61,481 nucleotides of DNA, filler included, from Sphacelaria rigidula (GCA_964200075.2; 9 parts of 9 records of this genome joined end to end with filler, not necessarily neighbours in it), one strand, 5' to 3'; shown: positions 1,446 to 54,639, numbered from the whole stretch's first letter. Program-made: numbers and translations. The notes: generated by a model not told the origin, from the letters alone.

Positions 1446-1853
1446 ATCACCACTATGTGGTTGGCGTCGGTTGGCAATGACGCTGTAGAACACGCCTCTC
1501 ACTGCGTAAGCTAGGCAACCAGGTTACCGATTTTTTTGTTGCGCGCTTGCGTTTTGTTGCAGTTTGTGCTGGGCGAGAGAATCTCAACTCCGCGCAAAGG
1601 AGATGATCATACTACGTAGTGAAATCTAGGAACAACCTTATTGAATTCATTAATCAATCATTCTAATCGATCATTCCAATCGATCAAGCCAGCGAGCGAT
1701 CAAATATCGGGGAAGGCACCTCTCAGCTGACGTGTACCAGTCCAAAAACATCGAGGAGCTTTTGTCGAGAGACTGAAGTACCCAAAAACATCAAATCTGG
1801 GAAAAATTCACACCCTGGTGGACAACATATGGTCAATAGATGCCATAGACCTA

Positions 1854-3712: not shown

Positions 3713-4421
3713 CCCGGGGATTTTCCCCGTCATCCCCTGTGCTCCGAGTGTCTATTGAGCAACGAAACTCCTTGGTGTGCCGTGTATGATGTACCACGTA
3801 CCACGGTATGGCGCGCGCTAATGCGTAGGGAGTTTTGGCCAAAAGTGCACTAGTAGGAAGGCACTATGTGATGACGTGATGTCTGCACTTGGAATCCCAG
3901 GGGAATCCAGGGAAAACCGGGGACGCTAGTATGGCGCCCCCGGGTCACCGAGGGGACTTGCCTAACCCTAGCTTTGCCTCACTCGCATATTTTAACACTA
4001 CTACGCTTGTAGAACTGCTCTACAGTCATTCTAGGGCGGTCCATCCATATCAGGCTCATATTCCGGTTTTTCCAAATCCTCAATATATTTCGGCCGAGAC
4101 TGGTATATGTATATTTTAAAAATTATATTTTTTCTCTACTTAGTTAACTCTACTTGTCTATTCTACCTTTTTGTTTTGTTCACTTTCGTTCGGCGCGTGT
4201 TCCCACTTTGTTTTTGCGAGCCTGGCCCGGCAAAACCCCGTCGTTCTCCGTCCCGGCTTTGTAGGGATGTGGAGTTAATGGTGATGAGACTACGGCATAC
4301 AAGATCATAAGTACATCCCCCCGACCCCCCGACCCCCGCGCGCTTCTTGTACACGCTCTTTTTCTTTACGCACGTTTGGAATATTCTCTTCTCTCTATTT
4401 GAAACACACAAACCTGCACAG

Positions 4422-16119: not shown

Positions 16120-16450
16120 GGAGGGGGAGGGGGGAGGGGGGGTGCTCATGATGTGCATGCCGTAGTCATAAAACCATTGACTTCGCATCCCGAAAAAGCT
16201 GGGATGGAGCACGCCGGCTTTTCGCCGGACCAAGCTCGCAATCACCACGAACCAAGCGCCGCGATGTGTTCGGCGAGTCGCATGAGGGGTGAGCTGCGCC
16301 CTGCTAAGATTGTTCGGTCCGAAGCGTACCAATTATTTTGCACATGACAGCCTTGCATCCTCGCATGAGTTGCTCCATTTTCTGGTCTCGCCATTTCCGG
16401 AGACAGCTAAAGGTTACACACTGCCTCATAGGTGTCTCACCATTTATGTA
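16120..16450 (-). mobile_element. Structured-head C-tailed retroposon family, 3' part
   Basis: Homologous to 37585-38105. The G-run on + at the left end corresponds to the C-tail on the sense strand. Confidence 0.75.
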
Positions 16451-20529: not shown

Positions 20530-20885
20530 CGCATGAAGGGTGAGCTGCATCCTGCCAAGAGTGTTCGGCCCGAAGCGTACTGATTATCTTGCATTTGGAT
20601 GACAGCCTCCGACGAGTTGCTTCATTTTCTGGTACAGTCAAATCCAGAGACAGCCACGGCTTACACACTGCAACATGGGTGTCTCACCATTTCAATACTA
20701 CGTAGTACGATTTTCTCATTTGAGGTTTTCCCACGCCGCACAAAATGATCTAGCTCAACCACCATGATGGTTACCGCAAAAAACCCGGTAACCTGGTTGC
20801 CTAGCTTACACAGTGATCGGTGTGTTTTACAGCGTCATTGCCAACCGACGCAAACCCAAGAGTCTGGAGGTGGCGGGGGGGGGTG
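20530..20885 (-). mobile_element. Structured-head C-tailed retroposon family, 5' two-thirds
   Basis: Reverse-complement homolog of 37585-37950, including the GCGTC/GACGC-TGTAA head. Confidence 0.78.
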
Positions 20886-22643: not shown

Positions 22644-24151
22644 GGCAAAAAGTATATTCACCCATATGGGTGGATCCTTATTCCCACCGTCACCTTTTAT
22701 CATGACCGATCCCGCGTTGTTTTTTTTAATTCGGTAGTTGACATTTTTTTTATCTGCGACCCGCTACGGATGTTTGCAAACAAAGTGAAGCCTTCACGTG
22801 TACCGGAGTGCAGGCAGTAGTCAGTAGTCATATCCTCTGCATCTGCATCCACCGTCATGTACGTGCATCTGCATGTAGCCTCGAACCCTACAGTGAAGAC
22901 GGAATAGTGCTGTACTGTATTGGCAAAGCACAGCTACCTACTGTGCTCGCGAGTACAGCCCGTGCTTGTAACCTGGCAGAGTACAGCCTGTACTTGGAAA
23001 TGGAGTAGTACAAGGTTACAAGTACAGCCTACAGCTGTGCCGTGTTTGTGAAGCACAGCCTATACTTATGATGTCGTTCTGTTCGCAAAATTCACGGTCT
23101 GTACTTGTGAATACTTATGTGCCCTGCTGTAACACCCTGACACTGCATTGTACTACCGTTATACCGTAAAGTCTACATCGTGCAGGAAGTGTTGTGCCCA
23201 TCATCTCGACAAATCTCATCCACGGCACCACCGGATGATGAACGATCGAATTGGGTGTTTTCCGTCGTGCTCAACATTGAGTCGTGATGGCTGGACTTCG
23301 ATACTCCGTCGGTCCTCCTTGTGCTTGTCGCTGCTGTATACACTCATTTTTTTTTGTTGTCTTTTACGTCCTTACCGTCTCCCTTGAATTGTGCGATCAC
23401 TTTTGAATAGACGTTCAGAGTCATGCGGAAGGGGGTCGTCCATTTTGACCCAGATGTTCATCATCGAGATACTCTCAGAGTTAGGACCGATACAATGATG
23501 AAGACAAGACATTTCAGGTGCATTTGTTTGCCAACCGTGGCGTGCTCACATGTATTTTTCGAGTTGGTTTTCGGATGAGAGACACTGCTCCCAACAAATG
23601 CCATTGAAGACATGTCTTGTGATTTTGATTGTGTTGCCATCGCATCAAATAGAAGGAGGCACACGACAGATTTACCCAAGATGGTTACTGAGGTTTTCCT
23701 GTTCTTGCATTACTCAGCTGGCTTGGACGCGAACCCCGGCACTTTTTGCGCTGTAACCTTGTACTACTGCATGTCCAAGTACAGGCTGTACTCTGCAAGC
23801 ACAGACAATACAGTAGTGCCAGGTTACAAGCACGGGCTGTACTCGCGAGCACAGTAGGTAGCTGTGCTTTGCCAATACAGTACAGCACTATTCCGTCTTC
23901 ACTGTAGGGTTCGAGGCTACATGCAGATGCACGTACATGACAGTGGATGCAGATGCAGAGGATATGACTACTGACTACTGCCTGCACTCCGGTACACGTG
24001 AAGGCTTCACTTTGTTCGCAAACATCCGTAGCGGGTCGCAGATAAAAAAAATGTGAACTACCGAATTAAAAAAAACAACGCGGGATCGGTCATAATAAAA
24101 GGTGACGGTGGGAATAAGGATCCACCCATATAGGTGGATATACTTCTTGCC
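22644..24151. mobile_element. Mutator-like element (MULE), non-autonomous, intronic
   Basis: Highly similar ~375-400-bp inverted arms (22644-23020, 23752-24151) starting GGCAA. Perfect 9-bp TSD TTGAAAGTG at 22635-22643 and 24152-24160. Confidence 0.92.
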
Positions 24152-25871
24152 TTGAAAGTGCATAGGCCGCCACAACACTGACTGCACCGTAAGCTGCGGC
24201 ACCGTACGCACCGTACACCACGCCTTTTCACTGCACCTGCAGTACTTTAATCCACTACGGCAACACTACAGGACACTCTAGTGGTGTAGTGCTGTGCAGC
24301 GTGGAGTATAGAGCAGTACAGAGAGCGCAAAACAGAACCCTACAACGTGCATTGCGATGCGATGAACTTCTCTACAGCGATACCGTACAGAGAGTCAGTT
24401 GTACAAAGAGTAGCACAGACAGTACGGTACGCAGCTCCTTCACACAGCAGACCTCGGCCGCATTGGGGTGATTTTTCCACATGCCGCCCATAACGGCGGT
24501 ACAAGACGTCATGATCTTTCACGGGATGGGAATACAGCCAGGTGTAGTACTGCTTGAGCGCTGTAGACTACGAATCGTTCCCGCTGTCTTCTTCCAGCTG
24601 AAGCTGGCAAGAGTGAGGGACTGCACCCAAGGCAACGTGTACCCGTCGAGAATTTGAATTTTCACGCAACACAACCAAGCGAATGTTGATACCATGGCGG
24701 CGTCAGGGAGGTCTTCTGATTGCGATGCCAAGCTTTCCTACTTCGTGAGCGGCCCATTGTGATGAGTATGGCAGTTTTGATGGATGATGAATGTCCCACT
24801 TTGCTTGATAGGATGTATTGACTTTGGACTGGACGTGACCATGGTGGTGAAGGTGCATTCCGCTCTGAACTCTGAAGAGGAACAACGATATTCAGAGTGA
24901 AGTGGTGCAAATGGTACTCTCACTCTGAAAAAAAATCAGAGTGGAATGTGCACCGTAACCGGCTATTTTCCCTTCCACTCTGACTCTAAGATGGGAAAAA
25001 ACGTTTTCCGAAGCTCTCTGTTGTAATGAAATCAAGCTAAGAATTCTGGCGGCGACAAAAAAATGAAGTGTCCAGCCTCAGCGACGACCACTACATGAAG
25101 TCCAATGCAGTAGGCCATTATCGACCCGTGCATTAGATCAGAAACCCAGGCTGAGCGTGATTTTCGGTTTCTCACGAGCGGGCCGCAAGTGTGTACGCTT
25201 TGAAATATAAACAGTAAAATTGAAACGATATTCACGGCTTATCTCAACACAAAAAACATCTAGAACACTACACACGTGGGACAGCTCATTTCCTACCTGA
25301 AGATCACTTGTTATTAGTGTACTGATCTGGATCATCAGCTACCTCATTTGGCCTCTTTTCTATACTTACTCCCTACAGCACTGAACGACAAGCACGCGGA
25401 GTACCGCAAAGGTAGCGCCCTGACTTCTCAGACCCCGCTGTCACGTATGTTGTGTTATTGGACAACGGATCTGAGAGTAGTCCTTGATTATATATTTCAC
25501 GTAGCTGCTCATGAGCTGTCCGACTTATGGAACATCAGAACACTAAGGTCGCCACGCCCCGGTGGTGGGGGATTCCGTTATTAGAAACGCGGGGACGTGA
25601 GTGGCGCCAACGAGAGGGTATTTGACGACAGTCGACGCAGTGAGGGAGTGCTTATTGTCATGATCCAATCTGCGATGCCTGGAAAATGACAATGGGTCAC
25701 ATCATCAACGACTGTGGACATCGTCTATCGCGATGTAGACGCATTAGGTAGCCGATACTGTACGAACTTCACTTCTTGACAATGTAATATGATGTCATTA
25801 AATCGCAAGGCGTGTACCGGGGAATATATAGAGATGCCGTGAGACGCGACGGGGTCGCCCCGAGGAAGGGG

Positions 25872-25936
25872 GCGTACTCATTTGTTGCTTGCCTTAGTCA
25901 TTTGACCATTGACCACGCATCCCTTTCGAGACGGAG
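25872..25936 (-). mobile_element. 65-bp 5'-truncated LINE tail inserted in SINE B
   Basis: 14-bp TSD CCCCGAGGAAGGGG at 25858-25871 and 25937-25950. Confidence 0.85.
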
Positions 25937-26034
25937 CCCCGAGGAAGGGGAGGGGTTGAACATGTGACCAAAAAATAGAGACTAGTTTGTTAAGGTGATT
26001 CGAGATACCTCCACGCCTAAGGGCCCTGGGTCAC

Positions 26035-26123: not shown

Positions 26124-26350
26124 CTTGGAAGAGGCGGGCGGTGTCGGTAGCATCATCAAAATCGGAATAATTGAATAAAACAACGGGGGGGGGGATCGCG
26201 AGCACGGTTCGACAGCTGTTGGAGTGGTGGAGAACACAAATCACGAAATTACAAAACCAAAGCAGCGCCAAAATGAGGTGTTGAAAAAGCGAACTAGGAT
26301 CTTCATCCAAATCACGCTACAGTTTGCCCCCCCCCCCCCCCCCCCCCCCC

Positions 26351-26389
<39 letters not shown>

Positions 26390-27371
26390 CCCCCTCGCCN
26401 NNNNNNNNNAAGGAGGGGTTGAAAAAGCGAACCAGGATCTTCACCCAAACCCCCCTACAGTTTCCCCCCCCCCCCCCCCCCTCACACACACACGCCCCCC
26501 CGCGCGTCTACTGCGATTTCGGGCGGGAGACTTGGACCTGTCACAAAGTACAAGGAGGTATACCAGTAGTCGGGCGAAGGAGGAAGTAGATGCACAAAAC
26601 TACCCGTGTGGCAAAGCAATAGAGAGTAGAGCGCATATCGTGGGAGGATGTGAACTATAAAAGGAGGAACGGGACGTGTTAGAGGGGGAAATGAGGGAGC
26701 AGTATGAACAAGAAAGAGACATAATATCATTTGGTACATAAGCTATCAACAAAACGATTGGTATACTGTACTAGGAAATCGATGGTGGTCACAGGCGGCA
26801 AAACAGGAAGGGGATACAATACGTAAACACGTTTTGGGCAATGTATGGAAGAAGCATATGGGCCCCTAAATGTTGCAGGTGTCCCAATCATCAGGAGTCG
26901 GAACGGTGCTCCGGCTCGAAAGGGATGCGTGGTCTATGGTCGAATGTTCCCCGGAATACCGCACTACTGTGGGACCTCCGTGCCTTGGTGGTCCAAGTGG
27001 TTCTTACTAAAAAGGGCAATGGCCTAGAAAAGGTATACCTTCTTGTTTTTTGCCTAAGAAAGGTACGAAAGATGGCCAGACACGCGAAAACAGCCAAACA
27101 CGCCATTTTGACCGTCTTCGCTCCGGATTTTTCACGCACACCGTTCGGGGGGGGCATTGGCACCCGGGACTAGAAAAAAAACGGATAAAAAACATGTTAC
27201 TCGAGAGATATGGCCACGCAAAAACGAACATTTCGCCTCCAGATACCGCTTACCTTTTGTAGGCCACATTTNNNNNNNNNNNNNNNNNNNNNNNNNNNNN
27301 NNNNNNNNNNNNNNNTTAATTAATTAANNNNNNNNNNNNNNNNNNNNNNNNNNNNNNNNNNNNNNNNNNNN

Positions 27372-27570
27372 ACGGGGATAAGATATGTACAAGGTTTGTG
27401 TGCAATGTATGGAAGAAAGGTAAGTAGCTTTTGAAGAAACGTAATGAGCGCCAAAATGTTGGAAGTGTCTATTAGGAGTAGGAACGGTACTCCGTCTCGA
27501 AAGGGATGCGTGGTCAATGGTCAAACGACTTAGGCAAGCAACAAATGAGTACGCCCCTCCCCCCCCCCAA
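27372..27570 (+). mobile_element. LINE 3' fragment (C-tailed family)
   Basis: Degenerate ORF end ...KKRNERxNV...SIRSRNGTPSRKGCVVNGQTT*ASNK*, then GTACGCC and a C-run. Confidence 0.72.
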
Positions 27571-29234
27571 TCGTAGCATGGCTCGGGGGAAACACTACTT
27601 TATAGCATCGAGCGACTTCATAGCATGGAGTGAGCAAAGCAAACGAGACCACATCCCACCGAAACACCCACGAAAAATGCCGCAAACCCCAAACTAGAGG
27701 AGAGCATATCTCGGGACGAAAGTGCAGCACACCTGACAACGTACGGCCGGACGCGAAGCGATTAATTACGGCCGATGCTGCTTGCCCTTGCAAGCACAAC
27801 GTACGCGAAAACATCGAAAGATATACAAGTATCCGAAAACCAAATGAAATAAGGCGGGAGAAAAAACGACAAGACAGGAAGTCGCGTCAAGAGCGAACAA
27901 TATGCAAGTAAATACCATACCGCGACAATTTGACAAATACACACATACAATACCGCGGCGCCGCGGTGATCAAGGTAATGAGTAGTCCATTGATATTGGT
28001 AGGTTTTGTCGTCGATATCATGAGTTATCATCGGAACGGGTTGATCGTGTTTTCATTTTCCTTTCCTTTCCTTTTCATTCCTTTCCTCTTCCCTTCCTAT
28101 TCCTGGTTTCATTTCTTGTATAGGATTTCTGTTTTTTTTTCTTCTTGTCGTTTGTGTTCAGTTTAACGAGCTCCATTCGTTCTTCTATCTCTCATTTTTC
28201 CTTCGTCTTCTCCCTTCTTCGAGTTTACTTTATTTAGCACGTGTAACATGTTTCCAGTATGCTTTATTTCCTCGGGTACATACGTCCATCTCGTGATTGA
28301 GTACAGCTCAATCTCTCAGGGGTCACTCACGTACGTCAGTTAACCAACCCATCCACCAACCATATCAATCCAACCGGTGCGTTCCAATCCTGAAGAGCAG
28401 TGGCGTTTAGAACTGGTTTAAATCGTGGTAACCGTCAGAATGGGAGTCAACACACACACACGCACGCAAAAAAAACTGACGAAAGTGAACAGGGTGCGGT
28501 AGTGTTAATGGTCATGATCCAATGCACGAGAAAAACTGATAAGCCAGGTATCGGAGGAGCGATGAGTCGGCGTCTTCAGACGACGGATTCGTCCGGAGGA
28601 AGGGAATTGGGGGGAGGGGGGGTAGCAAGTTCGACGAATAAAAAGCAAATACACGCACTCACAGAAACAGAGAGAAAGGGAGAGAGAGAGAGAGAGACCG
28701 TCCTGATAAGAAACGGTCATCGTTCAAAGGGTGGGGAGCAAAAAAGAAGCGGAAAAACGAAACAAAACAAAACAAAAATAACAAAAGCGACAACAAATAC
28801 CGATGTAAAACAACACTGCCCAACAAAAACAAACAAGTCCAAAAACCAGTGGAGGAGCCACGCCATGGTGGGGGTTAGACATTCGGGCATCCCCACATGT
28901 TTCTCGTTGACGGGCTCCTAAAGTGAGAGGCTATACAAGAATATGGGTCATAAAAGCCGCGCTTCCAAATTAAACTCGAGATACCCCTCGCTCATCAGAG
29001 TGCTAATAATCGTGGGGGTGCTCTGATGTATTTCATGAGTCGTGTTTTGGATGAGATGATTGGTGGGCTTCTAACACTTCAAATCTGAGGAATATTTTCA
29101 TGCACCCCTCCCTTGGAATGACTCTCAGTAATGTATCAAAAAGCACCATGACATATGACGAGGCAAAAAGACGAAGGAATATACGAAGAAACCAAAGAAA
29201 GAGGGGGAGACAAACGATGCACCAGCTACCTTAC

Positions 29235-29370: not shown

Positions 29371-30534
29371 CTTCCGAGTAATTTTCGGAGCAGGTGAGGA
29401 CACACCGGAGACGAAAAGGATAAGGTACACATGTGAGGAAGGCGTATCGCCAGGGTAGACAGCGACCTACGGGGGAGACTGTCGTTGGAGATGTCGTCTT
29501 GATGCAGAAGGAACTTCGAGGCTGGCGATGATTTCCTCATGTGATATGTAGGCAGGAAGTGGGTCAGACATGAGCGGTGGGTTGATCCGTAACGTCGGGG
29601 GGTGTTGGCCCGTCCTGATATCGGGCTCTTCCTAGCATCACGCCGAGTAGTCTGGTATCGTTGGCCTTACAGGGTCCCGGTAATCTGGCCCTCTCGGACC
29701 GTTCCTACCTCGTACCTGCATGCGCTGGTTCTTCATACATGTGTGGCATCAATCTCTGATGTGTCTCTGCAAAGAGGTGTCTTTCATTCACAGCGCGATA
29801 TAGATCTACAGCATGGTAGCCCAGTATCACGCTATCACCCTGTAAGATCATTCCCATTTGTACATGTTGACACCGATGGCTGTCCTGTTCAAGTATACAT
29901 ACATGCAACGGTTTTTTGGCGACTTAGGCCGCCATGCTCAACACATTGAGTTTCAATATACATGGGAACTGGCGATACGATGTGACGAAAATCTCGTTAC
30001 AGATACCGAAAAACAAAAAACTGTGCTAGCTGGCCTTCCTCCTGTGTGACACGGGCTGATGTACCCATACACACCGGAAGGTGTAGACTGGCGCCCAGAA
30101 AATAGATGGGATGACAGCACACACACACTACAATGCGTGCACGACTCCGACGTTAGGTTTAGTTTAAAATGATGATAAAACTGCACATAAAGCACCCGTC
30201 AACATCCCTCGAACATCGTCAACGAGAACACCTGACACAAATAAAAGGACCCAACTACACAGAATGGAAAAATTTCCATGTACCCGGGGGTTCATCAACT
30301 AACGCATCCAGTGTAGTCACCGGATTCTTCCGCGCGTGAAGGAGAGAGGAGAAAGACCAAAAAAGGGTGCACCGTGGCCAACCTCGAACCCCAGATGTGC
30401 ATAAGCATCAGAGAAGCATTTTACCAGTCTGCCAGTTTCCAGCACATTCGGCTACACAAGGGATAAATGACTGCATCTCTTAATGCTCTTCTTTAGGCGG
30501 TGAACTGAGGCACTCAACCCCCCTACAATCTATT

Positions 30535-32125: not shown

Positions 32126-32490
32126 GCTGGTCGCCCCGGTGGCTCAGCTGGTAACCTCGAAACCTTCTGACGGTTGGGTCGTGGGTGGGAATCTTGGTGC
32201 AGTCACACGATGATCTAGGATTTTTTGTCGCACAGTGCCCAACAGTGGAGAGCGACCATGTCGTCGTGGGTACACAAAAAATCGACTTCACGATCGACGA
32301 GGGAAAGGGACCGCTGAACCTCTCTCGCGATGAAAAATAAAAGTCAAGCACAGCAGAAGGAATGTGGAGAACTGAAACGAATAAAGAAGAAAATGATCTT
32401 GTGTTAGCCTCCTGTGTGACCCCGGCTGGTGCGCCCACATATACATACCGAAAGGTGTAGACCGGCGTTCAGAATAGATGGGATGATAGC
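32126..32490 (+). mobile_element. tRNA-derived SINE family A, nested in SINE B
   Basis: A-box TGGCTCAGCTGG and full body. SINE B sequence resumes after it. Confidence 0.8.
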
Positions 32491-32669
32491 ACCACGGACT
32501 CGTTCCGGGAAAGGGGAAGGATTAAAATCGACACAAAACAAACAAAGGTACCGATTTGGCCAGTGAAGCACGTCGGTTGTAATTTTTGAGGCACAAATTG
32601 CGTGCAGACTACGTATAGATGTGTACACATATATTCGTCATACTCCCCCCCCCTCCGCTCCCTCCCCCC

Positions 32670-32885
32670 CGCGATAGATGGTGGCCACAGACGGCGAAAC
32701 AGGACCGGGATAAGATACGTAAAAGTTTTTTGTGTAGTGTAAAGAAGAAACGGAATGAGCGCCTAAATGTTGCAGGTGTTTCTATTAGGAGTAGGAACGG
32801 TGCTCCGTCTCGAAAGGATGCGTGGTCAATGGTCAAACGACCAAGACAAGCACCAAAAAAAGTACGTCACCCCCTCCCCCCCCCC
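32670..32885 (+). mobile_element. LINE 3' fragment (C-tailed family) flanked by C-rich tracts
   Basis: DRWWPQTAKQDRDKIRKSFLCSVKKKRNERLNVAGVSIRSRNGAPSRK. C-runs on both sides. Confidence 0.75.
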
Positions 32886-33267: not shown

Positions 33268-33650
33268 ATCGGTCGCCTCGGTGGCTCAGTTGGTAACCTC
33301 GAAAGCTTCTGACGGTTGGAACGCGGGTTCAAATCTCGGTAATGTCATACGATCTGGGACTACTTCTCACATCATGCTCAACAATGGGGAGCGACTATGT
33401 CGTGAGAACACAAAAATCGACCTTACGATCGAAGAGGGGAAAGGGACTACTGAACCCTTCCTCGTTTTAAAAAAATGAGGCAAGCGCCGCAGAAGGAACG
33501 TGGAGCGCTACAGTGAAATAAAAATGATAGAACTCCAGTGATGACCTTCCTCCTGTGTGAACCGGCTGATACGCCCATATATATATATATATTATATGAA
33601 GTATCGAAAGGTGTAGACTGGCGTCCAGAATAGACGGGGTGACAGCACAC
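33268..33650 (+). mobile_element. tRNA-derived SINE family A
   Basis: A-box TGGCTCAGTTGG and B-box GGTTCAAATC. Body as in 406-1270 without the MITE. Confidence 0.8.
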
Positions 33651-33993: not shown

Positions 33994-36221
33994 CTGCATC
34001 CACGGATCAAACGTCTTGAAAAAAAAAGGGGGGGGAAGGGGGGGGCGGATTAGTTGAATGAAGTATCTGTCGGTGCTGAATTGTAGGCGCACGAAATGAT
34101 TCGAACAAGAAGCNNNNNNNNNNNNNNNNNNNNNNNNNNNNNNNNNNNNNNNNNNNNTTAATTAATTAANNNNNNNNNNNNNNNNNNNNNNNNNNNNNNN
34201 NNNNNNNNNNNNNGTCTAGGTTTTGGTGGCTTGTTTTACAGCGCCGTTGCCACTCGACGCCAACCCAAGAGTCTAGAGGTGAGGGGGAGGTGGGCGGAAG
34301 GGGGGGGGTTGAGTCGATTTGTTGCGCGAAGGTTCCACTTTTAACACGTCGCTACAAGCAGAAATATCCCTATACTGCTCTCGTTATCAATATCAAGTTT
34401 TTTCAAACCTGTCGACAGCGTTTTCACCCATGTTGAACTCCATTGCTCGTGTGTGAGGTTGTGAAATACACTCGCGACACCAGTTTTTAGTGCAATCCCC
34501 TCCCCCCCCCCGTGCCCCCTATCGTAAAATCAGACCAAACTAACCATCTCCAACACACAGCGAGGAAAGCCAAGGTCCAGCCCCCCTCAAGCCGAATTCG
34601 AGAGCATCGCTACGACCCGTGGGAATAGAAAAACCAAGTCGACATCGAGAAATGACCATGAGATTCAGCTATATTCGTGCGCGTGGGGGGCGTGCATGCC
34701 AGACGGTAGAACCAACATAACTCGTCTCATCGCCGACGCCAGTATATAGTGGCTGAATATTCCATTGCACCTTTTTTTAATATAATTACTCACGGGAGGT
34801 GATACATCGGTCCGACCATAACCTCTGGACTCACGCGATTCATAGCTTGTGTTCTCTCGTTCGATGCCTTCCCTCGTGTAATACCAAGCTGGCATCAATC
34901 CGCCAGATGGGAAGGTACTCTCGAGTGAGCAGGGGGGGGGGCGGGCATGGGATGCAGTTGGAGGGGTATCCATCATGAACGACAACGAGGCGTTACTCAC
35001 TCGGGGTTGGGGGCTACAGGTCTGATGGGTATTGAACACAGCCATATACCCGTCGTTTTGGAGGCAGGAAACCAGTACAACCTGTGAGCCTTGTAATATC
35101 TTGCATAACATATCGGCCCACTTTCTGGAGGAGCTCACCAAGTCACGGAGTATGACGTAGATGGCGGTCGCCATGCTGCCATCGCGGGCGACCGGTGCCA
35201 ATTGTTTTTGCAGTTTGTACCGTCATTGGTTCTTTCGGATAATCCAATCGGGACCCACGTAATATGTGAAGACTCGTCAAGCGTCACCCGTATAGTAGCG
35301 GTATGACAGCCATGGTCTACGCCATGTCATGACAATTGGTACGCTGCTTCAGTAAGGATGCCGGTACATAATGCCAGAGAGGTGACTCCAACCAGTGCAT
35401 GCGTCCGGAGTGGTGGGCCATGAGAATGTGGGCTATGCCACAGCGGCATGAAAATGCCAAAAATATCGTCATGTGGGCCGGTCAGACTCACGCGAGAGAA
35501 TTCAACCGACACAACACCAACACTCTAACAAGGTGTGGCCCAACAATGAAGAGAGGGCAGCAATGATGAAGGGCGTTCTGGCTGCTGCCACAAGCACATG
35601 GCGAACACAGTAACGGTGTCTCGCCAGGCTTGATGGGGAAAAGTGTCGTACAAACACAGCTCACAAACCGAAATGCAGCTCAATCAACGTGAATCTGTTG
35701 GCCCGAGAGCTACTGCGGGCAGGCTAGAGAAAAAACAAAATAGGGTATGCAGTGCATACACTACAAGCACGTGCGAATTTCACCGTGTATTATTGATCGC
35801 GAGGAATAACGACACGTCTCTTGCGTAAGATGCATGTCCAAAAGCGTGTGCGCCCGACTAGCATCTTGAAACCATCCGAGGTATAGTGAATGACGTTGCA
35901 GCGGAGAGAGTACCTTTGTCTTCGCAAGACGTATCTTCGTTTTGTCGTGTTCTCTGTACTTCTTTCTGTACTTAGCTTTTGTTGCCTTTTCTTTTTTTCA
36001 CGTCTTAGTCTACTATGTCGTTTCTTTCGATTTTTTTTTCCCTCCTTTTTTCTGTTCCTTCTTTTTCTTCAGCGAGTGTTTCACTTTTTTTCTTCTTAGG
36101 TGCGTTTATCATGTGACCACGGCTTGACCCCTGGCGGGTCAGTTAAAGCGCGACAATCAATGAATCAATCGATCAATCTGTTGGCGTTCGTGCTCACCGA
36201 AAACAAAAATTACGTTGACAG

Positions 36222-36984: not shown

Positions 36985-37584
36985 GTGGGTTTGAGGGGTA
37001 AATATTCGTGATGAAATTCGGTTCTACCGTGCAACAAATGCAGGCACGTCCTTTCGCAGGGGAGGGTACGGGAATGTGCATAAAACCGACAAAATATTGC
37101 GTTACACTGAAGTAATCGTGATAAATGGGCTCAGCCGGGCAAACATGATACTGCACGGGTGCTGCGCCGCAAGCTCAAACGGTTACGTGTAAGTGCGCAA
37201 CATTCGTCACATCAGACGCTCGTTTGTCATCGACGTTCATACTGATGAACAGCTGAGCTTTCACCACGCGCCTGTGATCGCCAGCGAGCGAGGGGCAAAA
37301 CATTCAGGAGCGGCGCTAATTCATCATGCCGCTTCAATTTGCCCCTCGTATGTTCATGCACTACCACTATATTTCCGTTAGTTTACTGCAACGAACCCCG
37401 ATGTTAGGTGGGCTGCTACTGACGCTGGCGTCAGCTTCCACTACTGTGAGTTGTGACAATCAACTAGCCTGAAGCTGTTGTACTCTCTACGTACTTTCAG
37501 CTCCTCCTCCCCCCTCCGCCCCTCCCCTCAGCCTAGTCCGGCGAAAACCCGGCGTGCTCCGTCCCGGCTTTGTAGGGGCGGACC

Positions 37585-38105
37585 CCCTATGGAGTTGGCG
37601 TCGGTTGGCGATGACGCTGTAAAACACGCCACTTATTGCGTAAGCTAGGCCACCAGGTCACCGATTTTTTTTCTCGTTTGTGTGTGTTTTTGTAGTTACC
37701 ATGGTGATGGTCGAGTTATATAATATTGTGCGGGGTGGAAGAACCTCAACCCCGCGCAAATGGGATGATTGTACTACGCAGCGTTTAAATGGTGAGACAC
37801 CCATGAGGCAGTGTATAAGCCGTGGCTGTCTCTGGAAGTGGTGATACCAGAAAATGAAGCAACTCATTGTAGGCTGTCATCCGAATGCAAGATAAGTAGT
37901 ACGCCTCGGGCAGAACAATCTTAGCAGCATGCAGCTCACCCTTCATGTGACTCGCCGAATACACCACGGCGCTTCGCTCTTGATGATTGACTGCGAGCCT
38001 GGTCCAGCTAAACCCCGGCGTGCTCCGTCTCGGCTTCGTAAGGATATGAGGTCACCGGCCATATGACCGTGGTATGCAAGATCATAGGTTCACATCGCCC
38101 CCCCT
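37585..38105 (+). mobile_element. Near full-length structured-head, C-tailed non-autonomous retroposon (intronic)
   Basis: Hairpin-rich head followed by a T-run, a shared body, and a 3' end homologous to the LINE tail. Fragments at ~1450-1620, 4215-4335, 16120-16450, 20530-20885, 34214-34310, 40880-40955, 41056-41255, 44540-44595, 45780-46100 and 61030-61110. Confidence 0.8.
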
Positions 38106-38358
38106 CAGCGCGTGCGTACTTCATGAGTATCTGAAACACGACATCGTTCCTCCAGCGCAAGAGAGTATCACAGCCATGTTAATTTCAAACCGCGACACTC
38201 TGCGAACGCAGCCAGAGGACGCGACAAGGCTTCGTGCGACCACACCATTCGTCATCGTCCTTCCTCTAGATGCGGCACGATGGGAAAACACGGCTAAACA
38301 CCCGCCCGACCACTGTGTTCAGGGGCTCATACCTCCCCTACCTTTCCCTTCGCCACAG

Positions 38359-38541: not shown

Positions 38542-38985
38542 GTGAGCGTATTCGTGACGGTACTGCAATAGTCTCTTGCGTTGGTGGTGTCTTGCGTTTG
38601 GGCGGTAGTTTCAAGAGGTGTCGAAGATAACCCAAGGTAAAGCGTTGCCATTGAATGTCCGTCTCCGTCGGCTTCTCAGACATCTTTTGCCTGAGTGTTA
38701 ACCCAGGTCGTGTATGTTTATCGCCCTCGGCTAACCAAGAAAAGGTATCCGGGGCTCAGTACATCTATCTCGTGTCGGTGAACGTTGGTCAGTGCTGACT
38801 GACGCCTCTGAGTACGTGACTGAGACGGCATGGTGATCCTCACCTCAGCCCCGTCGAAGTTGCTCATGCCACGCAAAACCGTGAACACGCACATCATCAC
38901 CATCTCACAACATCAAACCCGGGTAGACGAATCGGCCGATGGACTCGTTTCTCTCCCTTCGAACGCGAACTGAACTGCCGCGCAG

Positions 38986-39192
38986 ATGGGCTGGAAATAT
39001 CTGGGCAAGCACGGGCTGCGCGTCAGACATATCGGATGACTACGATGACCCTGTTTCGGAAGGGTGCGTGACGAACTATTGCCGGGAGGGCACTTGCCCG
39101 GACTACTTTGGACCCACCGGAACCACGACAAAGGCGGAATTCGCGCTTCAAGAGGGCGGGCTCGACTTCTACGATGTCAGCGTTATTGACGG
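38986..39192 (+). CDS. Thaumatin-like domain core exon
   Basis: WAGNIWASTGC...GCVTNYC...GPTGTTTKAEFALQEGGLDFYDVSVIDG contains the thaumatin motifs WxGxIWAxTGC, TxAEF and DFYDVSxxDG. CAG acceptor and GTACGT donor. Confidence 0.93.
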
Positions 39193-39583
39193 GTACGTGG
39201 TTGATCCACGCAGAATAGATAAAGCGAGAACGATGTTGAGCGTCTTGAAACGTGGACCGAAGAGTGGAGAAACATCCGTAGGTCCTACTGCTGTGATGAT
39301 TTTTACCGACGCATACCGCTCGGTGATATTGCGTGGGTTTTGTTCGAAGGTGGACATGAAAACAAAATCTACAACGGGATTGTGCGCTGCTGTATGGCGA
39401 CAGGTGGCGCTGCGGCACTCATTGAGCGCCGACAGTTGGAATAAATGAATGACAACAGCAACCGCGCTTGTTACGCATAGCGTATGGTCAGCCCGAGGCC
39501 TTAGAAGATTGCAACGATAGGAAGTGTCGCCTCCATGGTACAGGGCTGCTAACAATGTTTTCGTGAGATTGAGCGTAGAGGAT

Positions 39584-39834: not shown

Positions 39835-41295
39835 GGATACGATTGAGAGTGAAAAACAGTTAATCAGTGAATTAATCGTTTTAGTTCCGAGATACCTCTC
39901 CACGAGGCCTGATATGCTTTCTGTTGTAGCTTGCCACTGAGGCCCTTGATACCCCTGAGTAGGATGTCCACGTGTAGCTGTAAGCACACGGCAGTAATGG
40001 AGGTACAAAAAAGAAAACACGGAATGAAAATTTGGTTAAGTTAAAGCGAATGATCAAAGCCACTCTCAATCAGCGCTATACTCTCAATATCACGATAACG
40101 TAGTTTGCCGTGGTGAATGAAGCCACCTACGTACCCAAGTTGGAGGAATATTTCAAACACCACATCTAAGGGTCATTTTCCAACGGGTTAAATATTTCCG
40201 TACTCTTCATCCATTTTGGGAGAAAGTTCGACTTTTTAGGGGGAAAAAAATGCAGCAAAACAAATCCAACGTGAAATATCCCGAGTAATATGTAGCCAAT
40301 CTTGAACTGTTTTATACCTCGTCTCGGCTGAGAAATTTACTGTCACCCTTTTTGGGGAGGAAGTTTTATTTTCGCCTAAACGTTTGGACAAGTCCGAAAA
40401 AAACACAGCCCCGCTAATATGCCCCTGACATGCACAAATTGAAGATCGGAGTCACAGTATAGGCACCTCTTGCCTGCTGCGCAAGCCTCGAGCTGCCGCG
40501 TTCAATTCGAATACCGCACGGGCCCGCCGGCCTCCAGCCTGGCGGTTAATTTCCCGTACCCTCGAACAAAGGGCCAATGTGCACATGAACCAAACTGGTG
40601 CAAATTTGATGTTGGAGCTGCGCTGTTCTCACCTTTCAAAGTAAAACTGTTCTTGGAGTGGTCTCCCTTCGATTCTGTGCGTGACACGTTTGCGATGCAG
40701 GGCGAATATTCCCCTGATGATTTCGCCGACGACCGCGGTGCATACGGACAACCCCTACTACTGTGGAAGTCCCGGCTCGACCCTGGAGCAAGGAGGTACT
40801 GGCTTCGGAGTCATGCTACGATAGGGGGGGGGTACTCATGGTCATGCATGCCAAAGCTATATGCTACGATGGGGGGGGGGCAGGGGGGGTAGGGATGATC
40901 CGGCATGCCCAAGTCATCAGACCATTCACCTCTCCATCCTACAAAGCCTGGTCGGNNNNNNNNNNNNNNNNNNNNNNNNNNNNNNNNNNNNNNNNNNNNT
41001 TAATTAATTAANNNNNNNNNNNNNNNNNNNNNNNNNNNNNNNNNNNNNNNNNNNNTGGGCCGAACAATTTTGGCAGGATGCAGCTCACCCTTCATGCGAC
41101 CCGCCGAACACACCACGGCGCGTCGTGCTTGGTGACTGAGTGCGAGTCTGGTCCGGCGAAAACCCGGCGTGCTCCCTCCCGGCTTTGTAGGGATACGAGG
41201 TCAATGGTCTGATGAGTATGACATGCATGATCAAAAAGAACATCCCCCCTCCCCGAAACGACCCCTGCTTTTCACAATTGTCCGTATTCGTACAG

Positions 41296-42870: not shown

Positions 42871-44710
42871 TGAGGTGTCCCATACTGAGGCTGCTTGGTG
42901 GTCTTCAATCTGTGGCTCATTGCGTTCATTTATTTATTCACACAATTGTTCCCAGCGAGTGTCTGTCGTTACTATAGCATCTGCATCTGTAATGCTGCGT
43001 AGTCTTTGCCAGTCTCTGACAAGGAGTTTTGATACGTTTTTTACGCGGAAGGAGTATCACCATGGGTTTCCGATCGTTTTTATATTACCACAATGCATGC
43101 AAATGCCTTCTGCGGTTTAGGTGCATAAGCTGCAGTACAATTCCCCAGGAATGGAGATGCGCTTGTGTACCGGGACGGGGGGACGGGCGAGGTATGTGCT
43201 GACGTTTTTGAACATTTACGAAGGGATGGCGTGACGGTCTCATACCATCTTCGTGGCAGGCGGATGAGCGATGGCGCTAGGTGGACGCATATATATATAT
43301 ATAATATATATATGGTCGATGGCTGTACGTATGTGTGTTTACGTGTACGGGTGGGGGTGCGTGCGTTTTGTCATACGTACAAGAGGGATGATTTTTATCG
43401 CATCTCGTTATCTGCCGTGTGAAGTGAAAGTTGTGGTGTCTGTTGTTACCCCGAGTGCTGTCACTTGAATTTCTCCTGCCCGAGGGGCCGAGCCACTTGC
43501 CTGTGCCCGAACGTCACGCTTGGAAAGGGCTTCTCCTTCGTTCGTTTATTATTCGTTCATTTTGTATGGTTTTTGTACGAAGCTGCATATGCTGCAAGTT
43601 CGAGTGAAGTTTGCACGCCGGCGAGCCGAGGCCGGAGTGAGGGGCACCGCAGTTGACACTTGTCGAGTCGTGGACTCTTGGCAGTGGAAGCAAACTGCGC
43701 TGCGAGCTCTAGGGGAGCAGTTGTTTGCGCGTGTCCAGTAGGGACACTGTGGTTGGCGTGGTGGGCGTCATTTTGGGTACGTGAAGTTTCTCGATAAGGG
43801 GGCAATCCCGAAATTGCCCTTCTTCGTAATTCACTCTTCGTGTCAGCAGTCATGAATGCTTCCACTCGAAGACTGATGCGTGGGACGCATTTCTCCACAA
43901 ATGTTGAAGAGGTTGTGCTATGATGCGCGGTGGGTTACGGGGTCGCACGCACCCGGACAGGGGTGCTCGTGCAGTGATTTAGCGTAAGGGTGGTGAAAAC
44001 TGCTCCAAAAAATATTCATCCACTATCAAAGAGGACCGGTGAGGATTAGGCTGCGATCGCATGACCCTTTTCGACGCTTTGCAATCAAGGATGTTGTCGG
44101 TGGTGGGAGTTGGAGTTTTTGCTAGAATGCAAGGAATAGTGGTGTGCAGAGAAACGAATCAGTGGCACGCAGTAAACACACGAGAAGAGTGGCACGGGGT
44201 TTCTCCCATCGGCCTAAACAAATTTGTGTGAAGAGTGTGATTGGCCGAGTATCCCTGGTCAACGACTGATATCGTACATGGGTTTCGAGGGGGATGAACG
44301 TTTAGTAATGTATGGCGTCACCTACCTGGTACGTGTTCGAAAAACTTTGTGGCGACAACCAAACTCTCGGAGGTTTCCTGCGCATGGCGTTGATGACGGC
44401 ACTTTATGGGCTTGGCATGGTTTATTGATTTTTTCGACGTATATAGTATGTGTGCTGGGTCGCATGGGTCAAAACACGCGCGGGACACCTGCTGCGGCGT
44501 GCAGCCCGTTGCGTGGTAGTCCGGATGGGCTTACGAGGGGAGGGGGGATGTACTAGTGATCTCGCATGCCCTAGTCATGAGACCTTTGACCTAAGGGCTG
44601 GGGGGGGGGGGGGGGGGGGGAAGGGGGAGCCAACCCCCATTTTGTTCGGGTGGGAAACAGGGAAAAAGGATCACCGGTNNNNNNNNNNGGGGGGGGTGGG
44701 TTGGGGGGGT

Positions 44711-44773
<63 letters not shown>

Positions 44774-45100: not shown

Positions 45101-47027
45101 TGCGTATCGCAGACAGTGATTGTACAGGTGTAAAGGGGCCAAGGGGTGCCGAAGGATGAACATGGTGCGTAATTTGCTGGTTGTCCGGAAACAGAATCCA
45201 TGAAATCTGATCGGCCGATATCCCTTGGTCGACGTGCGCGTATTCTCCGAAAAAAAAAGTGGTGCAACAGGCAGTACGGATTCTTCTGCACATTTTTCCG
45301 ACAAAAGCTGTTCTCATGGGTTAAATTTTCATCCATATGTGTGTCAGCCGTTGTTGTCCGGAATTAAACTTATTTGATGATGCCCTTTTTGTGGCTGCGT
45401 GGTTTAAGACGCCAATAGAGGAGTGACACGGAATAATTTGCTATTTAATAACGAAATTACATTTCAACGTTACTCCTTCTCGGGTTCAGGATCTCAGAAA
45501 AGCGAGAAATTTGATGATGGTTCTCTTGACTACAAAACCAAGTTGTTCGCTCGGTTGCTTCGTTCTGGCTTTTGCCGATGATGAATAATGCCGGTAACAG
45601 GAAAATGTTCTGTGGTACCCGGCAGTGTACCGTGGCCTCACCACCTGTGAAACCTTCCTGCGGCAACGTGAAAGCTAGCGCCATCGAGGAAGCTGGGAAT
45701 AGCACAACGAGATTTCCAACAGGACCCTAAAACGGTTCTGGTATCCCCTTGTGCGCCGTGGTATGAATGATGCGATAAAGGGGTGTGGGGGGATGTACTC
45801 ATGATGTCGCACGTCGTAGTCACATGATCATTGACCTCGCATCTCTAAACCGCCGCGACGGAGCACGCCGGGTTTTCGTTGGACCAGGCTCGCGATCATT
45901 CGCCAAGCGCGAAGCAACGTGAGTGGCCTGAAGGGTGAGCTGCACCCTGCTGCGATTATTCGGCTCGAAGCGTACTGACTATCTTGCATTTGGATGACAG
46001 CCTCCTATGACTTACTTCAGTTTCTGGTATCGCCTATTCCAGAGACAGTCACGACTTGCGCACTGCCTCCTGGGTGTCTCAATATTTGAACACTGCGTGA
46101 TGTCATCATCAAAGATATACTTGAAGGCTTGAATTTTTTTGTCCATGTGGTCTCAGATTGTGATAAGGTGGATATTTTCAATTTTCGGAATATACTACAT
46201 CATACGATATACGGGTTGGTCTACGCCTTACACCTAAATTTCACCAATCAGCAATCCATTGCCTTTCCGCGATACCTAACCAGTTGTCGCATGCATGGTG
46301 TCAAACTGATCGCCACGGAAAACTAAATAGGGTGACACAGCCGGGTTTTGTCGTAGGCTACAGAGTGGTGGCGCTTAAGGCGAAAAAGGGGCAAATATGA
46401 CCTAGGTACCTCCACCAAGCAGTCGCCGTGAAATTATCCTGAAGATTAAAATGCGGAGTCCCAACCCGAATTCTACCTAAAATCTCTCAATACTGCACAT
46501 CGTAGTAATCGCCATCAGCTGCAGAACCTCACGGCAAGAACACATTTGATATATGGTTCCCGTGGGATCTATCATACCCCAACCCGTGGTAATTCGGTGA
46601 TGCAGCGTTTCGGCGTCGCCGTATTCCCACTGACGATAATACGCACCGAAAAAGATCCAGAATCTTCCCGACGGTTTTCCTGGTAATATCTGTCGTGGTG
46701 AAGCTCCCACCACCCCCAAACTTGGTGGTTCGGCAGGTGGAGCTCTATTGATGTCCCAAACGGAAGAAATAAATAGTTGCGAATAAATATATGTCAAGCT
46801 TTTTCCGCCCTTTATCGGCTTCCGGGGGGTACTCGAGCGATGACCTCCGGAAGGCGACACAGAATGTCCAAAAATAATGTCTAGATAACTCATGCGTCCG
46901 TCCCGGCGTAGTCCAAGGAGCATCTGCACGAAGTCAAGTGTTGCTCTGTAATTTAGAGAAAAAGTGACGTAATAGATTCGATGAAGCGTTAAGCGTACGA
47001 GCTGGGCCAGCCTAGAAGCGGGTTTAA

Positions 47028-50555: not shown

Positions 50556-50689
50556 CCCTCCCTCAGGCCTAGGGTTGAAAAACCCTGGGACTGAACATGT
50601 TTCAACGATGGATCGCCGCGTTACCATGTTCCTCTTCCCCGAGTAATCGGCGTTGCTTCGTACAGCCGTCGATCTTGGCAACCGTTCTG

Positions 50690-51035
50690 CCGGGTTAGCC
50701 CACGTGGGGAATATAAACACCGTGCAAAACAATCTCGAACAATCTCGGCAACTCCTGCTCTTGTAGGTCTCTCTGCCGGGTTAGACCACGTAGGGAGTTA
50801 AAACACCGTACAGAAACGATCCCATCCAGTCCGGAGAAGTCCTTGATCTTGTTGACCGCTCCGCCGGGTTAGACCACGTAGGGAATTTAAACACCGTACA
50901 GAAACGATCCCATCCAGTCCGGAGAAGTCCTTGATCTTGTTGATTTCTTTGCCGGGTTAGACCACGTAGGGAATTTAAACACCGCACAGAAACGATCCCA
51001 TCCCGTCTGGAGAAGTCCATGATTCTTTTGACCGC
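50690..51035. repeat. 88-bp tandem array (3 conserved units plus 1 diverged) in the Gypsy 3' region
   Basis: CCGGGTTAGACCACGTAGGGA at 50776, 50864 and 50952. Diverged unit at 50690. Confidence 0.92.

Positions 51036-54607: not shown

Positions 54608-54639
<32 letters not shown>

What the first reader, a model, noticed from the sequence alone, without database searches (positions are those of the whole stretch)
37585..38105. Abundant non-autonomous retroposon with a non-tRNA structured head that folds like an SRP (7SL) Alu domain
Seen: about 11 fragments, present in most contigs. The head (also at ~1458, ~20800-20870 on - and ~34225-34280 on -) reads GGTT-GGCGTC GGTTGGCAA TGACGC-TGTAA-AACAC GCCAC..GYGT-AAGCT. 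That is a hairpin, UGUAA, and a second hairpin with potentially kissing loops (TGGC/GCCA). A GGCAACC/GGTTACC hairpin and a T-run follow. No tRNA A/B boxes. Known: this helix-UGUNR-helix layout is the SRP Alu domain, and 7SL-derived SINEs are described from very few lineages, mainly primates and rodents. Inference: possibly a 7SL- or other small-RNA-derived SINE in an alga. Alternative: the head resembles the CTCCAG..GGGTTGG..GTAAAA 5' UTR motif of RTE-type LINEs, which would make it a bipartite LINE derivative.
Basis: partly seen in the sequence, partly recalled or inferred. Interest (0 to 1): 0.7.

Follow-up and report, generated by a model that had tools for sequence, protein, structure and literature searches.

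The report
Brown-algal LINE-dependent short retroposon
This is a very abundant short mobile element of a brown alga that is copied by a C-tailed LINE; its front end shows no measurable likeness to signal-recognition-particle (7SL) RNA, so it is an ordinary member of a recently described kind.

Summary
The repeat family is real. I count 12 fragments in 5 of the 9 joined pieces of the window, and heads at the four places named. It is also hugely over-represented in public runs of the same organism.

The 7SL/SRP-Alu reading is not supported:
- No Rfam family matches any of the three complete heads on the head strand, even at E up to 10. That excludes SRP, 5S, tRNA and snRNA models.
- The heads fold no better than shuffled sequence (z +0.3 to +0.5).
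- Only 1 of 16 proposed pairs co-varies, and by CpG-type changes.
- The published 7SL box A and box B motifs are absent.
- A T6-8 run sits about 80 nt into the element.

What it is: a non-autonomous retroposon. Its last ~60-65 nt plus (C)n tail are homologous to the 3' end of an intact 1382-aa endonuclease-RT LINE that I recovered from related contigs. That LINE's closest named relatives are Ectocarpus proteins. A host exon in the window is 89% identical to an Ectocarpus protein, so the host is a brown alga.

The 2025 Ectocarpus TE catalogue describes this kind: RTE-X LINEs with (C)n tails and C-rich target duplications, and ~600-bp non-autonomous RTEX-N elements with a "5' head unknown". New copies land in C-runs, which explains why every head follows another element's tail.

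The origin of the head remains unresolved.

The parts
37524..37532 (+). Candidate 9-bp C-rich target-site duplication, 5' copy. The same 9 letters recur at 38101-38109.
   Evidence: Read directly. A 9-mer match in C-rich sequence could be chance.
37530..37577 (+). Z: a 48-nt fragment of the family's own tail region, lying directly before the head. It is 85% identical to 37996-38043.
   Evidence: (family D20). In run X8, contig records 25 and 26 span this fragment, the head, the linker and the body in other copies. Most contigs carrying this fragment continue instead with the normal tail (959 loose ends behind 37577 in X1).
37587..37661 (+). Head: a short leader, hairpin-capable segment 1, TGTAA, segment 2, and an imperfect segment 3.
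   Evidence: No Rfam match. Fold z +0.31 and +0.39.
37662..37669 (+). T8 run closing the head (T7 in B, T6 in C).
37670..37789 (+). Linker: variable, with a GT-rich stretch. It is shared with B and C but far less represented than the head or the body in the laid contigs.
   Evidence: summed depth 9 thousand to 378 thousand here, against millions on either side.
37790..37995 (+). Body. Its first base is also the 5' end of copy E, and of many copies elsewhere that are preceded by a C-run.
   Evidence: 364 loose ends before 37789 in X1, consensus a C-run. No similarity to the LINE.
37996..38097 (+). Tail. The last ~60-65 nt are homologous to the 3' end of the LINE ORF.
   Evidence: Other copies of this tail hit the LINE 3' end at 73-78% identity (E 8e-8 to 0.006).
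38098..38104 (+). (C)7 terminal run.
   Evidence: All seven tails aligned end in a C-run.
1453..1619 (+). Copy B: head, T7 and linker only. It ends at the position matching 37792 and lies directly after a LINE 3' fragment with its C-run (1369-1445).
20532..20862 (-). Copy C: head, T6, linker and body, cut by the piece edge. It is preceded by another tail-like end and C9.
34214..34271 (-). Copy D: a divergent head cut by the piece edge, preceded by C9.
16123..16446 (-). Copy E: body, tail and C-rich run. Its 5' end is at the position matching 37790 and follows a C-rich stretch.
45779..46098 (-). Copy F: 5'-truncated at about the position matching 37764.
41057..41254 (+). Copy G: body end and tail, cut by the piece start.
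4214..4337 (+). Copy H: tail only, with a C-rich run.
26511..26946 (+). 5'-truncated copy of the partner-type LINE (C-terminal coding part), preceded by C-runs. Further LINE 3' fragments lie at 27374-27568 (+), 32673-32885 (+), 25868-25941 (-), 1369-1445 (+) and 2744-2816 (-).
   Evidence: tblastn with the 1382-aa LINE protein. BLASTN.

Best explanation
The element is a ~520-570-nt non-autonomous non-LTR retroposon of a brown alga. It is copied in trans by an RTE-X-type LINE, which has a single endonuclease-RT ORF and a (C)n 3' tail.

Architecture:
- a head of about 75 nt closed by a T6-8 run;
- a variable linker of ~120 nt;
- a body of ~205 nt;
- a tail of ~105 nt, whose last 60-65 nt derive from the LINE's 3' end;
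- a terminal (C)n.

Inferred mechanism. The LINE's reverse transcriptase recognises the shared 3' end. The (C)n of the RNA pairs with a G-run at the nicked target. This gives target-primed reverse transcription into C-runs, C-rich target duplications, frequent 5' truncation, and tail-to-head tandems, because earlier copies' (C)n tails are the commonest targets.

The head is not detectably derived from 7SL or from any other catalogued small RNA. My odds for its origin:
- about 0.3: the 5' end of a LINE (a bipartite derivative);
- about 0.1: an undescribed small RNA;
- the rest: captured or unknown sequence.

Because of the internal T-run, I infer that full-length templates are made by Pol II or by read-through transcription, not by Pol III starting in the head.
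For: Shown:
1. Copies share one 3' end and differ at their 5' ends. E, F and H are truncated at three different points, which fixes the orientation and the retroposon nature.
2. All seven tails aligned end in C-rich runs.
3. Scanning for a 20-nt tail motif gave 126 loci. Four of them are real relatives. Two of these, and the whole 5259-nt contig L129, carry an intact ORF of 1382 aa. It has Exo_endo_phos (E 8e-11) and RVT_1 (E 7e-32) domains. Its stop codon lies about 10 nt before the (C)n.
4. The family's tails align with that LINE's 3' end.
5. The window itself holds six 5'-truncated fragments of that LINE.
6. Among the 93 hits to the LINE protein, the best named ones are Ectocarpus proteins (60% identity). 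A host Rrp4 exon at 4311-4754 is 89% identical to an Ectocarpus protein and 81% to an Ascophyllum protein.
7. In PMC12477816 I read main-text passages and supplementary file 1, part 1. It lists RTEX-1/2_Ec32 as 'single EN-RT ORF; (C)n 3'' with C-rich TSDs. [quoted passage not shown]
8. All 4 heads in the window, and the one divergent head in L129 (E 4e-5), lie directly after another element's tail region. In four of the five a C-run stands between tail and head. For head A it is a truncated tail fragment followed by a short C5.
9. In the runs, sequence before the head and before the body start is mostly a C-run: 291 loose ends before 37594 and 364 before 37789 in X1.
Against: - No full-length LINE of this organism was available, so the actual partner and its 5' end are unseen.
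- The LINE's clade was not tested by phylogeny. RTE-X is inferred from its architecture, its (C)n tail and its Ectocarpus relatives.
- I could not compare the element with the RTEX-N1/N2 consensus sequences, because the FASTA supplements are not readable here.
- The tail shows no supported conserved stem: 7 predicted pairs, none with a compensatory change. Recognition of the tail by structure is therefore unproven.
- Copy B has head and linker but no body or tail. The linker is orders of magnitude less represented than the head and the body. The ~520-nt form may therefore be a chimera of two units, not the master form.
- The 9-bp duplication around copy A is in C-rich sequence and may be chance.
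Confidence: 0.8

Rival explanations
1. A 7SL-derived SINE (SINE1). The head is a shortened SRP Alu domain whose fold helps it reach the LINE machinery.
For: The layout of hairpin, TGTAA/TGTAG, hairpin is present in the heads that reach it. The motif also fits UGUNR in the divergent L129 copy. One pair in hairpin 2 changes on both sides in copy C.
Against: - No SRP model (nor any Rfam model on the head strand) matches at E up to 10 in heads A, B and C. At gathering thresholds the whole window gives 0 hits.
- Fold z-scores are +0.31 to +0.46, so the heads fold no better than shuffles.
- Covariation: 1 of 16 pairs, reached by 153 of 500 shuffles. The double change is two CpG-type transitions.
- The 7SL box A given in PMC7245038 is in 0 of 4 heads at up to 2 mismatches. 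Box B is in 0 of 4 at up to 3; the one nearby hit is in B's linker, and total hits are at chance (128 against 136 expected).
- No segment corresponds to the 7SL 3' end, which SINE1 families keep (PMC7245038 sections 5 and 10).
- A T6-8 run ends the head.
Confidence: 0.02
2. A true SINE with a new kind of head. The ~75-nt head plus oligo-T would be a retro-copied, so far undescribed Pol III small RNA of brown algae. It would have been fused by template switching to an older non-autonomous element (linker or body plus tail).
For: - The head has a fairly discrete 5' end and is closed by T6-8 in 3 of 3 copies, like a Pol III terminator.
- The body alone (E-type) exists as a separate and more represented unit with its own 5' end at 37790.
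- Chimera formation between small RNAs and RTE-type non-autonomous elements is documented (PMC7245038 discussion).
Against: - No Rfam match.
- No A or B box better than chance.
- No stable or conserved fold.
- The same T-run would stop Pol III before the tail that the LINE needs.
- All 5 heads follow another element's tail region, which insertion into C-runs explains without any small RNA.
Confidence: 0.1
3. A bipartite LINE derivative. Head and linker would be the 5' end of an RTE-X LINE, joined to its 3' end by internal deletion, so the element uses the LINE's own promoter.
For: - The curators of the Ectocarpus library note 'weak homology to 5' of RTEX-2_Ec32' for the head of RTEX-N1.
- Bipartite non-autonomous derivatives are common for RTE-type LINEs (PMC7245038 discussion).
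- An internal T-run is no obstacle for Pol II.
Against: - Head, linker and body show no similarity to 5.1 kb of the related LINE in L129, including about 1 kb upstream of its ORF. The only hit is the head-like stretch after its (C)n.
- However, Ectocarpus RTE-X LINEs are 5.5-5.9 kb, and L129 ends in ~70-nt tandem repeats. The extreme 5' end is therefore probably missing.
- L129 belongs to a sister tail subfamily, not necessarily to the true partner.
Confidence: 0.3
4. The ~520-nt form is not one element. It would be two families joined in a tail-to-head tandem: a 'head plus linker' unit and the 'body plus tail' (E-type) unit. Some such joins would later have been co-transcribed and copied as a unit.
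For: - B stops at the position matching 37792, and E starts at the position matching 37790.
- The linker is about 1000-fold less represented than the head or the body.
- Many contigs have a C-run directly before 37790.
- Copy A itself carries a tail fragment before its head, and other copies share that arrangement (X8 records 25 and 26).
- The Ectocarpus counterpart 'can be present in tandem'.
Against: - A and C share the same linker-body junction with no C-run between them, at 76% identity over 354 nt. The composite therefore propagates as one unit.
- B has no tail or (C)n of its own, so a free 'head plus linker' retroposon is not shown.
Confidence: 0.25

Closest known systems
RTEX-N1_Ec32 and RTEX-N2_Ec32, non-autonomous RTE-X elements of Ectocarpus (PMC12477816, Genome Biol 2025; I read main-text passages and supplementary file 1, part 1)
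   Same: - Brown-algal host.
- A few hundred bp long (607 and 188 bp there; ~520-570 bp and a ~310-bp E-type form here).
- The 3' ~60 bp are homologous to an autonomous single-ORF EN-RT LINE.
- (C)n tail and C-rich target duplications.
- Can stand in tandem.
- Among the most abundant repeats of the genome.
- A 5' head of unknown origin, with no Pol III promoter identified.
   Different: Sequence identity to those consensus sequences could not be tested, because the FASTA files are not readable here. The representation here looks far higher than the ~6000 copies reported for Ectocarpus, although one search gives no copy number. A T6-8 run after the head and the three-segment head are not mentioned for the Ectocarpus families.
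SINE1: 7SL-derived SINEs such as Alu, B1 and hagfish SINE1-1_EBu (PMC7245038, sections 5 and 10 read)
   Same: A short non-autonomous retroposon. SINE1-1_EBu is likewise mobilised by an RTE-type LINE through a shared 3' tail. There is a superficial hairpin-UGUNR-hairpin layout.
   Different: - No sequence or covariance-model similarity to SRP RNA.
- No 7SL box A or box B.
- No 7SL 3'-end segment.
- No supported Alu-domain fold.
- An internal T-run.
Bird SINE-like families with GC-rich heads of unknown origin upstream of bipartite RTE sequences (mentioned in the discussion of PMC7245038; the original paper was not read)
   Same: A head of unknown origin joined to RTE-type LINE-derived parts, with a uniform chimeric structure among copies.
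   Different: Different host kingdom and a different LINE subgroup. The tail here is (C)n and not a short microsatellite. No direct comparison was made.

Membership tests
SINE1 (7SL-derived SINE) | The 5' ~90-96 nt show strong sequence similarity to the 5' part of a 7SL RNA gene (PMC7245038, section 5). | tested here: not met
   Rfam cmscan including all SRP models, at E up to 10: no SRP hit in heads A, B and C. Zero hits at gathering thresholds in the whole window. The host's own 7SL gene was not available.
SINE1 (7SL-derived SINE) | The 7SL Pol III box A and box B lie inside the head (motifs as printed in PMC7245038, section 5). | tested here: not met
   Box A at up to 2 mismatches: 86 hits in the window, 0 inside the 4 heads. 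Box B at up to 3 mismatches: 128 hits (136 expected), 0 inside the heads and one in B's linker. The motifs are the human ones; the host's may differ.
SINE1 (7SL-derived SINE) | A second segment from the 7SL 3' end, so that a complete Alu domain can form. | tested here: not met
   After the second hairpin come only ~25 nt and then a T6-8 run. No Rfam SRP match anywhere in 37480-38120.
SINE1 (7SL-derived SINE) | An Alu-domain secondary structure kept by compensatory changes. | tested here: inconclusive
   Only 4 heads: 90.7% of cells paired, 1 of 16 pairs with a double change, reached by 153 of 500 shuffles. MFE z-scores +0.31 to +0.46. The test is underpowered; hundreds of copies are needed.
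SINE in the strict sense (small-RNA-derived head with an internal Pol III promoter) | The head derives from tRNA, 5S, 7SL or snRNA and carries A/B (or A/IE/C) boxes. | tested here: not met
   ARAGORN finds 0 tRNAs. No tRNA, 5S or snRNA Rfam hit on the heads. The best A or B box match has 3 mismatches, the same as the shuffled mode. The T6-8 run would terminate Pol III at about nt 85.
RTE-X-dependent non-autonomous element (RTEX-N-like) | The 3' terminal ~60 bp are homologous to the 3' end of an autonomous LINE. | tested here: met
   The tails of E, F and G match the 3' end of the L129 LINE at 73-78% identity (E 8e-8, 1e-5 and 0.006). Alignment of 16 tails.
RTE-X-dependent non-autonomous element (RTEX-N-like) | A (C)n 3' tail and C-rich target sites or duplications. 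| tested here: met
   C-runs end all aligned tails. C-runs precede heads and 5'-truncated copies. A candidate 9-bp C-rich duplication flanks copy A. No clean set of duplications was established.
RTE-X-dependent non-autonomous element (RTEX-N-like) | The partner LINE belongs to the RTE-X clade (single EN-RT ORF). | tested here: inconclusive
   L129 has a single 1382-aa ORF with Exo_endo_phos and RVT_1 domains and a (C)n tail. Its best named relatives are Ectocarpus proteins. No phylogeny with reference RTE-X sequences was made.
RTE-X-dependent non-autonomous element (RTEX-N-like) | Sequence similarity to the RTEX-N1_Ec32 or RTEX-N2_Ec32 consensus. | not testable with these tools
   The library FASTA files of PMC12477816 are listed but cannot be read here.

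The most novel reading that the evidence does not exclude
The ~75-nt head closed by an oligo-T run is a retro-copied, previously undescribed Pol III small RNA specific to brown algae. It was fused to an RTE-X-dependent element. This would make the family a true SINE with a new class of head in a lineage where no bona fide SINE head has been identified.
Probability: 0.1. Interest if true: 0.6.

Novelty: new member of a known kind. Interest (0 to 1): 0.25.

Why it matters
7SL-derived SINEs are known only from Euarchontoglires and hagfish, so one in an alga would have been a striking third origin. The evidence here says it is not one.

What remains is useful but ordinary:
- It extends the RTE-X / RTEX-N system, just catalogued in Ectocarpus, to another brown alga, where it seems to be a dominant genome component.
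- It gives a simple explanation for the tail-to-head tandems and for the C-runs that break assemblies: targeting of (C)n by a (C)n-tailed LINE.
- It leaves one small open question shared with Ectocarpus: where the head of these elements comes from, and which polymerase transcribes them.

Tried and rejected
- No whole genome is held for the window, so no genome-wide consensus, no host SRP RNA and no full-length LINE of the same organism could be obtained.
- Exact-pattern scans for the head gave 0 loci in metagenome contigs, viral contigs and genome contigs.
- The tail pattern gave 0 loci in viral contigs. It gave 69 + 57 loci elsewhere, of which 122 of 126 share only the 20-mer.
- Searching the MAG G001 with the whole element found nothing.
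- The only other RT in the window (55141-55870, minus strand) is a 5'-truncated LINE of a different family. It is 25% identical to the L129 LINE and cut by the piece edge, so it gives no 5' UTR.
- Sequencing runs: no RNA holder is listed. Run X8 is only guessed to be RNA and consists of contigs, so nothing can be said on expression or on a ~100-nt small RNA.
- By eye the head recalled parts of 5S rRNA, but no 5S match appeared in any Rfam scan, so I dropped the idea.
- Conserved structure of the tail: RNAalifold gives 7 pairs at -3.2 kcal/mol with no compensatory change. I make no structural claim.
- Earlier findings of this scan: nothing by place, by sequence or by words.
- Two literature searches for poly-C-tailed LINEs and algal SINEs gave only the Ectocarpus paper as relevant. 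The listing supplied the SINE1 papers.
- For PMC6007223 I read only the abstract. It concerns T-stretch targeting by RTE-related SINEs and I did not use it further.

Full report
1. WHAT IS THERE

The window is nine pieces of ~6742 nt joined by N blocks. No whole genome is held for it.

The stretch 37585-38105 is one full copy (A) of a repeat. BLAST and alignment give 12 fragments in 5 of the 9 pieces:
- A and C carry head, linker and body. A has the tail as well; C is cut by a piece edge.
- B has head and linker only.
- D is a head cut by a piece edge.
- E, F and H are truncated at three different 5' points.
- G is cut by a piece start.
- Z is a 48-nt tail fragment directly before head A.
- Three further pieces are tail only.

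All copies that reach the 3' end share it and finish in a C-rich run. A shared 3' end with variable 5' ends is the signature of LINE-mediated retroposition, and it fixes the orientation.

A profile of the four heads finds exactly these four in 61 kb. It ends in T8, T7 or T6 in the three complete copies.

2. IS THE HEAD AN SRP ALU DOMAIN?

No test supports this.
- Rfam at gathering thresholds gives 0 matches in the window.
- With permissive filters and E up to 10, the whole element and heads A, B and C scanned alone give no SRP, 5S, tRNA or snRNA match. The only hits near a head are three at E about 5 on the opposite strand of C.
- ARAGORN finds no tRNA.
- The heads fold no better than dinucleotide shuffles (z +0.31 to +0.46), and the MFE structures differ between copies.
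Only 1 of 16 pairs changes on both sides, and 153 of 500 shuffles reach this. The change is G-C to A-U through two CpG-type transitions.
- With four sequences this covariation test is weak, so I call the structure untested rather than disproved.
- The proposed TGGC/GCCA loop match is complete in 2 of 4 heads.
- The 7SL box A and box B motifs printed in PMC7245038 (section 5) are absent from the heads.
- tRNA-type A and B boxes match no better than in shuffled heads.
- SINE1 families keep a second segment from the 7SL 3' end. Here a T-run follows about 25 nt after the second hairpin.

3. WHAT MOBILISES IT

A 20-nt motif of the tail was scanned in public contigs. Of 126 loci, 4 share real similarity with the window.

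Two of them, and then the whole 5259-nt contig fetched through handle G001, carry an intact ORF of 1382 aa.
- The ORF has an Exo_endo_phos endonuclease domain and an RVT_1 reverse transcriptase domain.
- Its stop codon lies about 10 nt before a (C)n run.
- The 'tail' is therefore the 3' end of a LINE.
- The window holds six 5'-truncated fragments of this LINE.
- The tails of the family under study align with its last 60-65 nt at 73-78% identity.
- Head, linker and body have no counterpart in the 5.1 kb of LINE available.

4. HOST AND PRIOR KNOWLEDGE

The LINE protein's best named relatives are Ectocarpus proteins (60% identity). A host Rrp4 exon at 4311-4754 is 89% identical to an Ectocarpus protein and 81% to an Ascophyllum protein. 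One holder run is labelled 'algae metagenome'. The host is therefore a brown alga.

The Ectocarpus TE catalogue (PMC12477816; passages and supplementary file 1, part 1) describes:
- RTE-X LINEs with a single EN-RT ORF, a (C)n 3' end, C-rich target duplications and lengths of 5.5-5.9 kb.
- RTEX-N2_Ec32: 188 bp, head unknown.

The element here is the same kind of thing. I could not align it to those consensus sequences, because the FASTA files are unreadable here.

5. WHY EVERY HEAD FOLLOWS A TAIL

All four heads in the window, and a divergent head in L129 (E 4e-5), lie directly after another retroposon's tail region. In four of the five a C-run stands between. For head A it is a truncated tail fragment and a short C5.

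In the public runs, sequence before the head (291 loose ends in X1) and before the body start at 37790 (364 in X1) is mostly a C-run. Truncated tails also follow C-runs.

The simplest account is an inference from the known logic of target-primed reverse transcription. The (C)n of the RNA pairs with a G-run at the nick. New copies therefore enter existing C-runs in the same orientation, which gives C-rich duplications and tandems. A candidate 9-bp duplication flanks copy A, at 37524-37532 and 38101-38109.

6. UNRESOLVED ANATOMY

The parts are unequally represented in the laid contigs. Summed depth is in the millions for the tail, the body and the head, but only thousands to hundreds of thousands for the linker (these are not copy numbers).
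- B stops where E starts.
- A and C nevertheless share the same linker-body junction.
- Copies elsewhere carry the same arrangement of tail fragment, head, linker and body (X8 records 25 and 26).

So the ~520-570-nt form propagates as a unit, but it may have arisen as a chimera.

The T6-8 run argues against Pol III transcription from the head through to the tail. I infer Pol II or read-through templates.

The origin of the head stays open: the 5' end of a LINE (the L129 contig probably lacks the extreme 5' end), an unknown small RNA, or captured sequence.

7. VERDICT

The 7SL reading is not supported. This is a new member of a kind described in 2025, and its interest is low to moderate.

Noticed in passing
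window 406-507, 995-1264, 32126-32492, 33270-33650, 56781-56989, 30031-30132: A second short retroposon family with a tRNA-like head. Its A and B box-like motifs have 2 mismatches each. ARAGORN calls no tRNA. One copy ends in a C-run at 32645-32653. It probably uses the same or a related C-tailed LINE.
   Followed up: partly
window 26327-26394, 26464-26481, 44703-44772 (-), 54608-54639, 54792-54811: Very long C or G runs (up to 70 nt), several interrupted by 10-N assembly gaps or lying at piece ends. In this genome such runs sit at retroposon junctions and seem to break the assembly.
   Followed up: partly
window 27570-27579 (+), 40861-40870 (-), 40813-40822 (-): The same 10-mer follows a retroposon (C)n run three times. 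There are 4 exact matches in the window (9 within 1 mismatch, against 2.5 expected). Two of the three flank a ~40-nt truncated tail like a target duplication. The third is at an independent locus with similar downstream sequence. It may be a preferred target or part of another repeat.
   Followed up: partly
window 55141-55870 (-): A 5'-truncated reverse-transcriptase fragment of a different LINE family. It is 25% identical to the C-tailed LINE, has internal G and C runs, and is cut by the piece edge.
   Followed up: partly
L129 (G001:C43) and L130 (G001:C51): A genome bin labelled as an uncultured bacterium holds contigs that encode eukaryotic LINEs with brown-algal relatives. This is likely host contamination of the bin. 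The L129 region upstream of the ORF carries ~70-nt tandem repeats and ends the contig.
   Followed up: partly
window 22644-22978 and 23817-24151: A 335-nt inverted repeat, 98% complementary, with arms 838 nt apart. It may be the ends of a DNA transposon or a recent inverted duplication.
   Followed up: no
window 50671-51037; 17248-18588: Tandem arrays with periods of about 88 nt and about 43/85 nt.
   Followed up: no
window 38927-39445 (+); 4311-4754 (+): Host exons near the repeats: a thaumatin-family stretch (E 4e-12) and the KH domain of exosome subunit Rrp4 (E 3e-12).
   Followed up: partly
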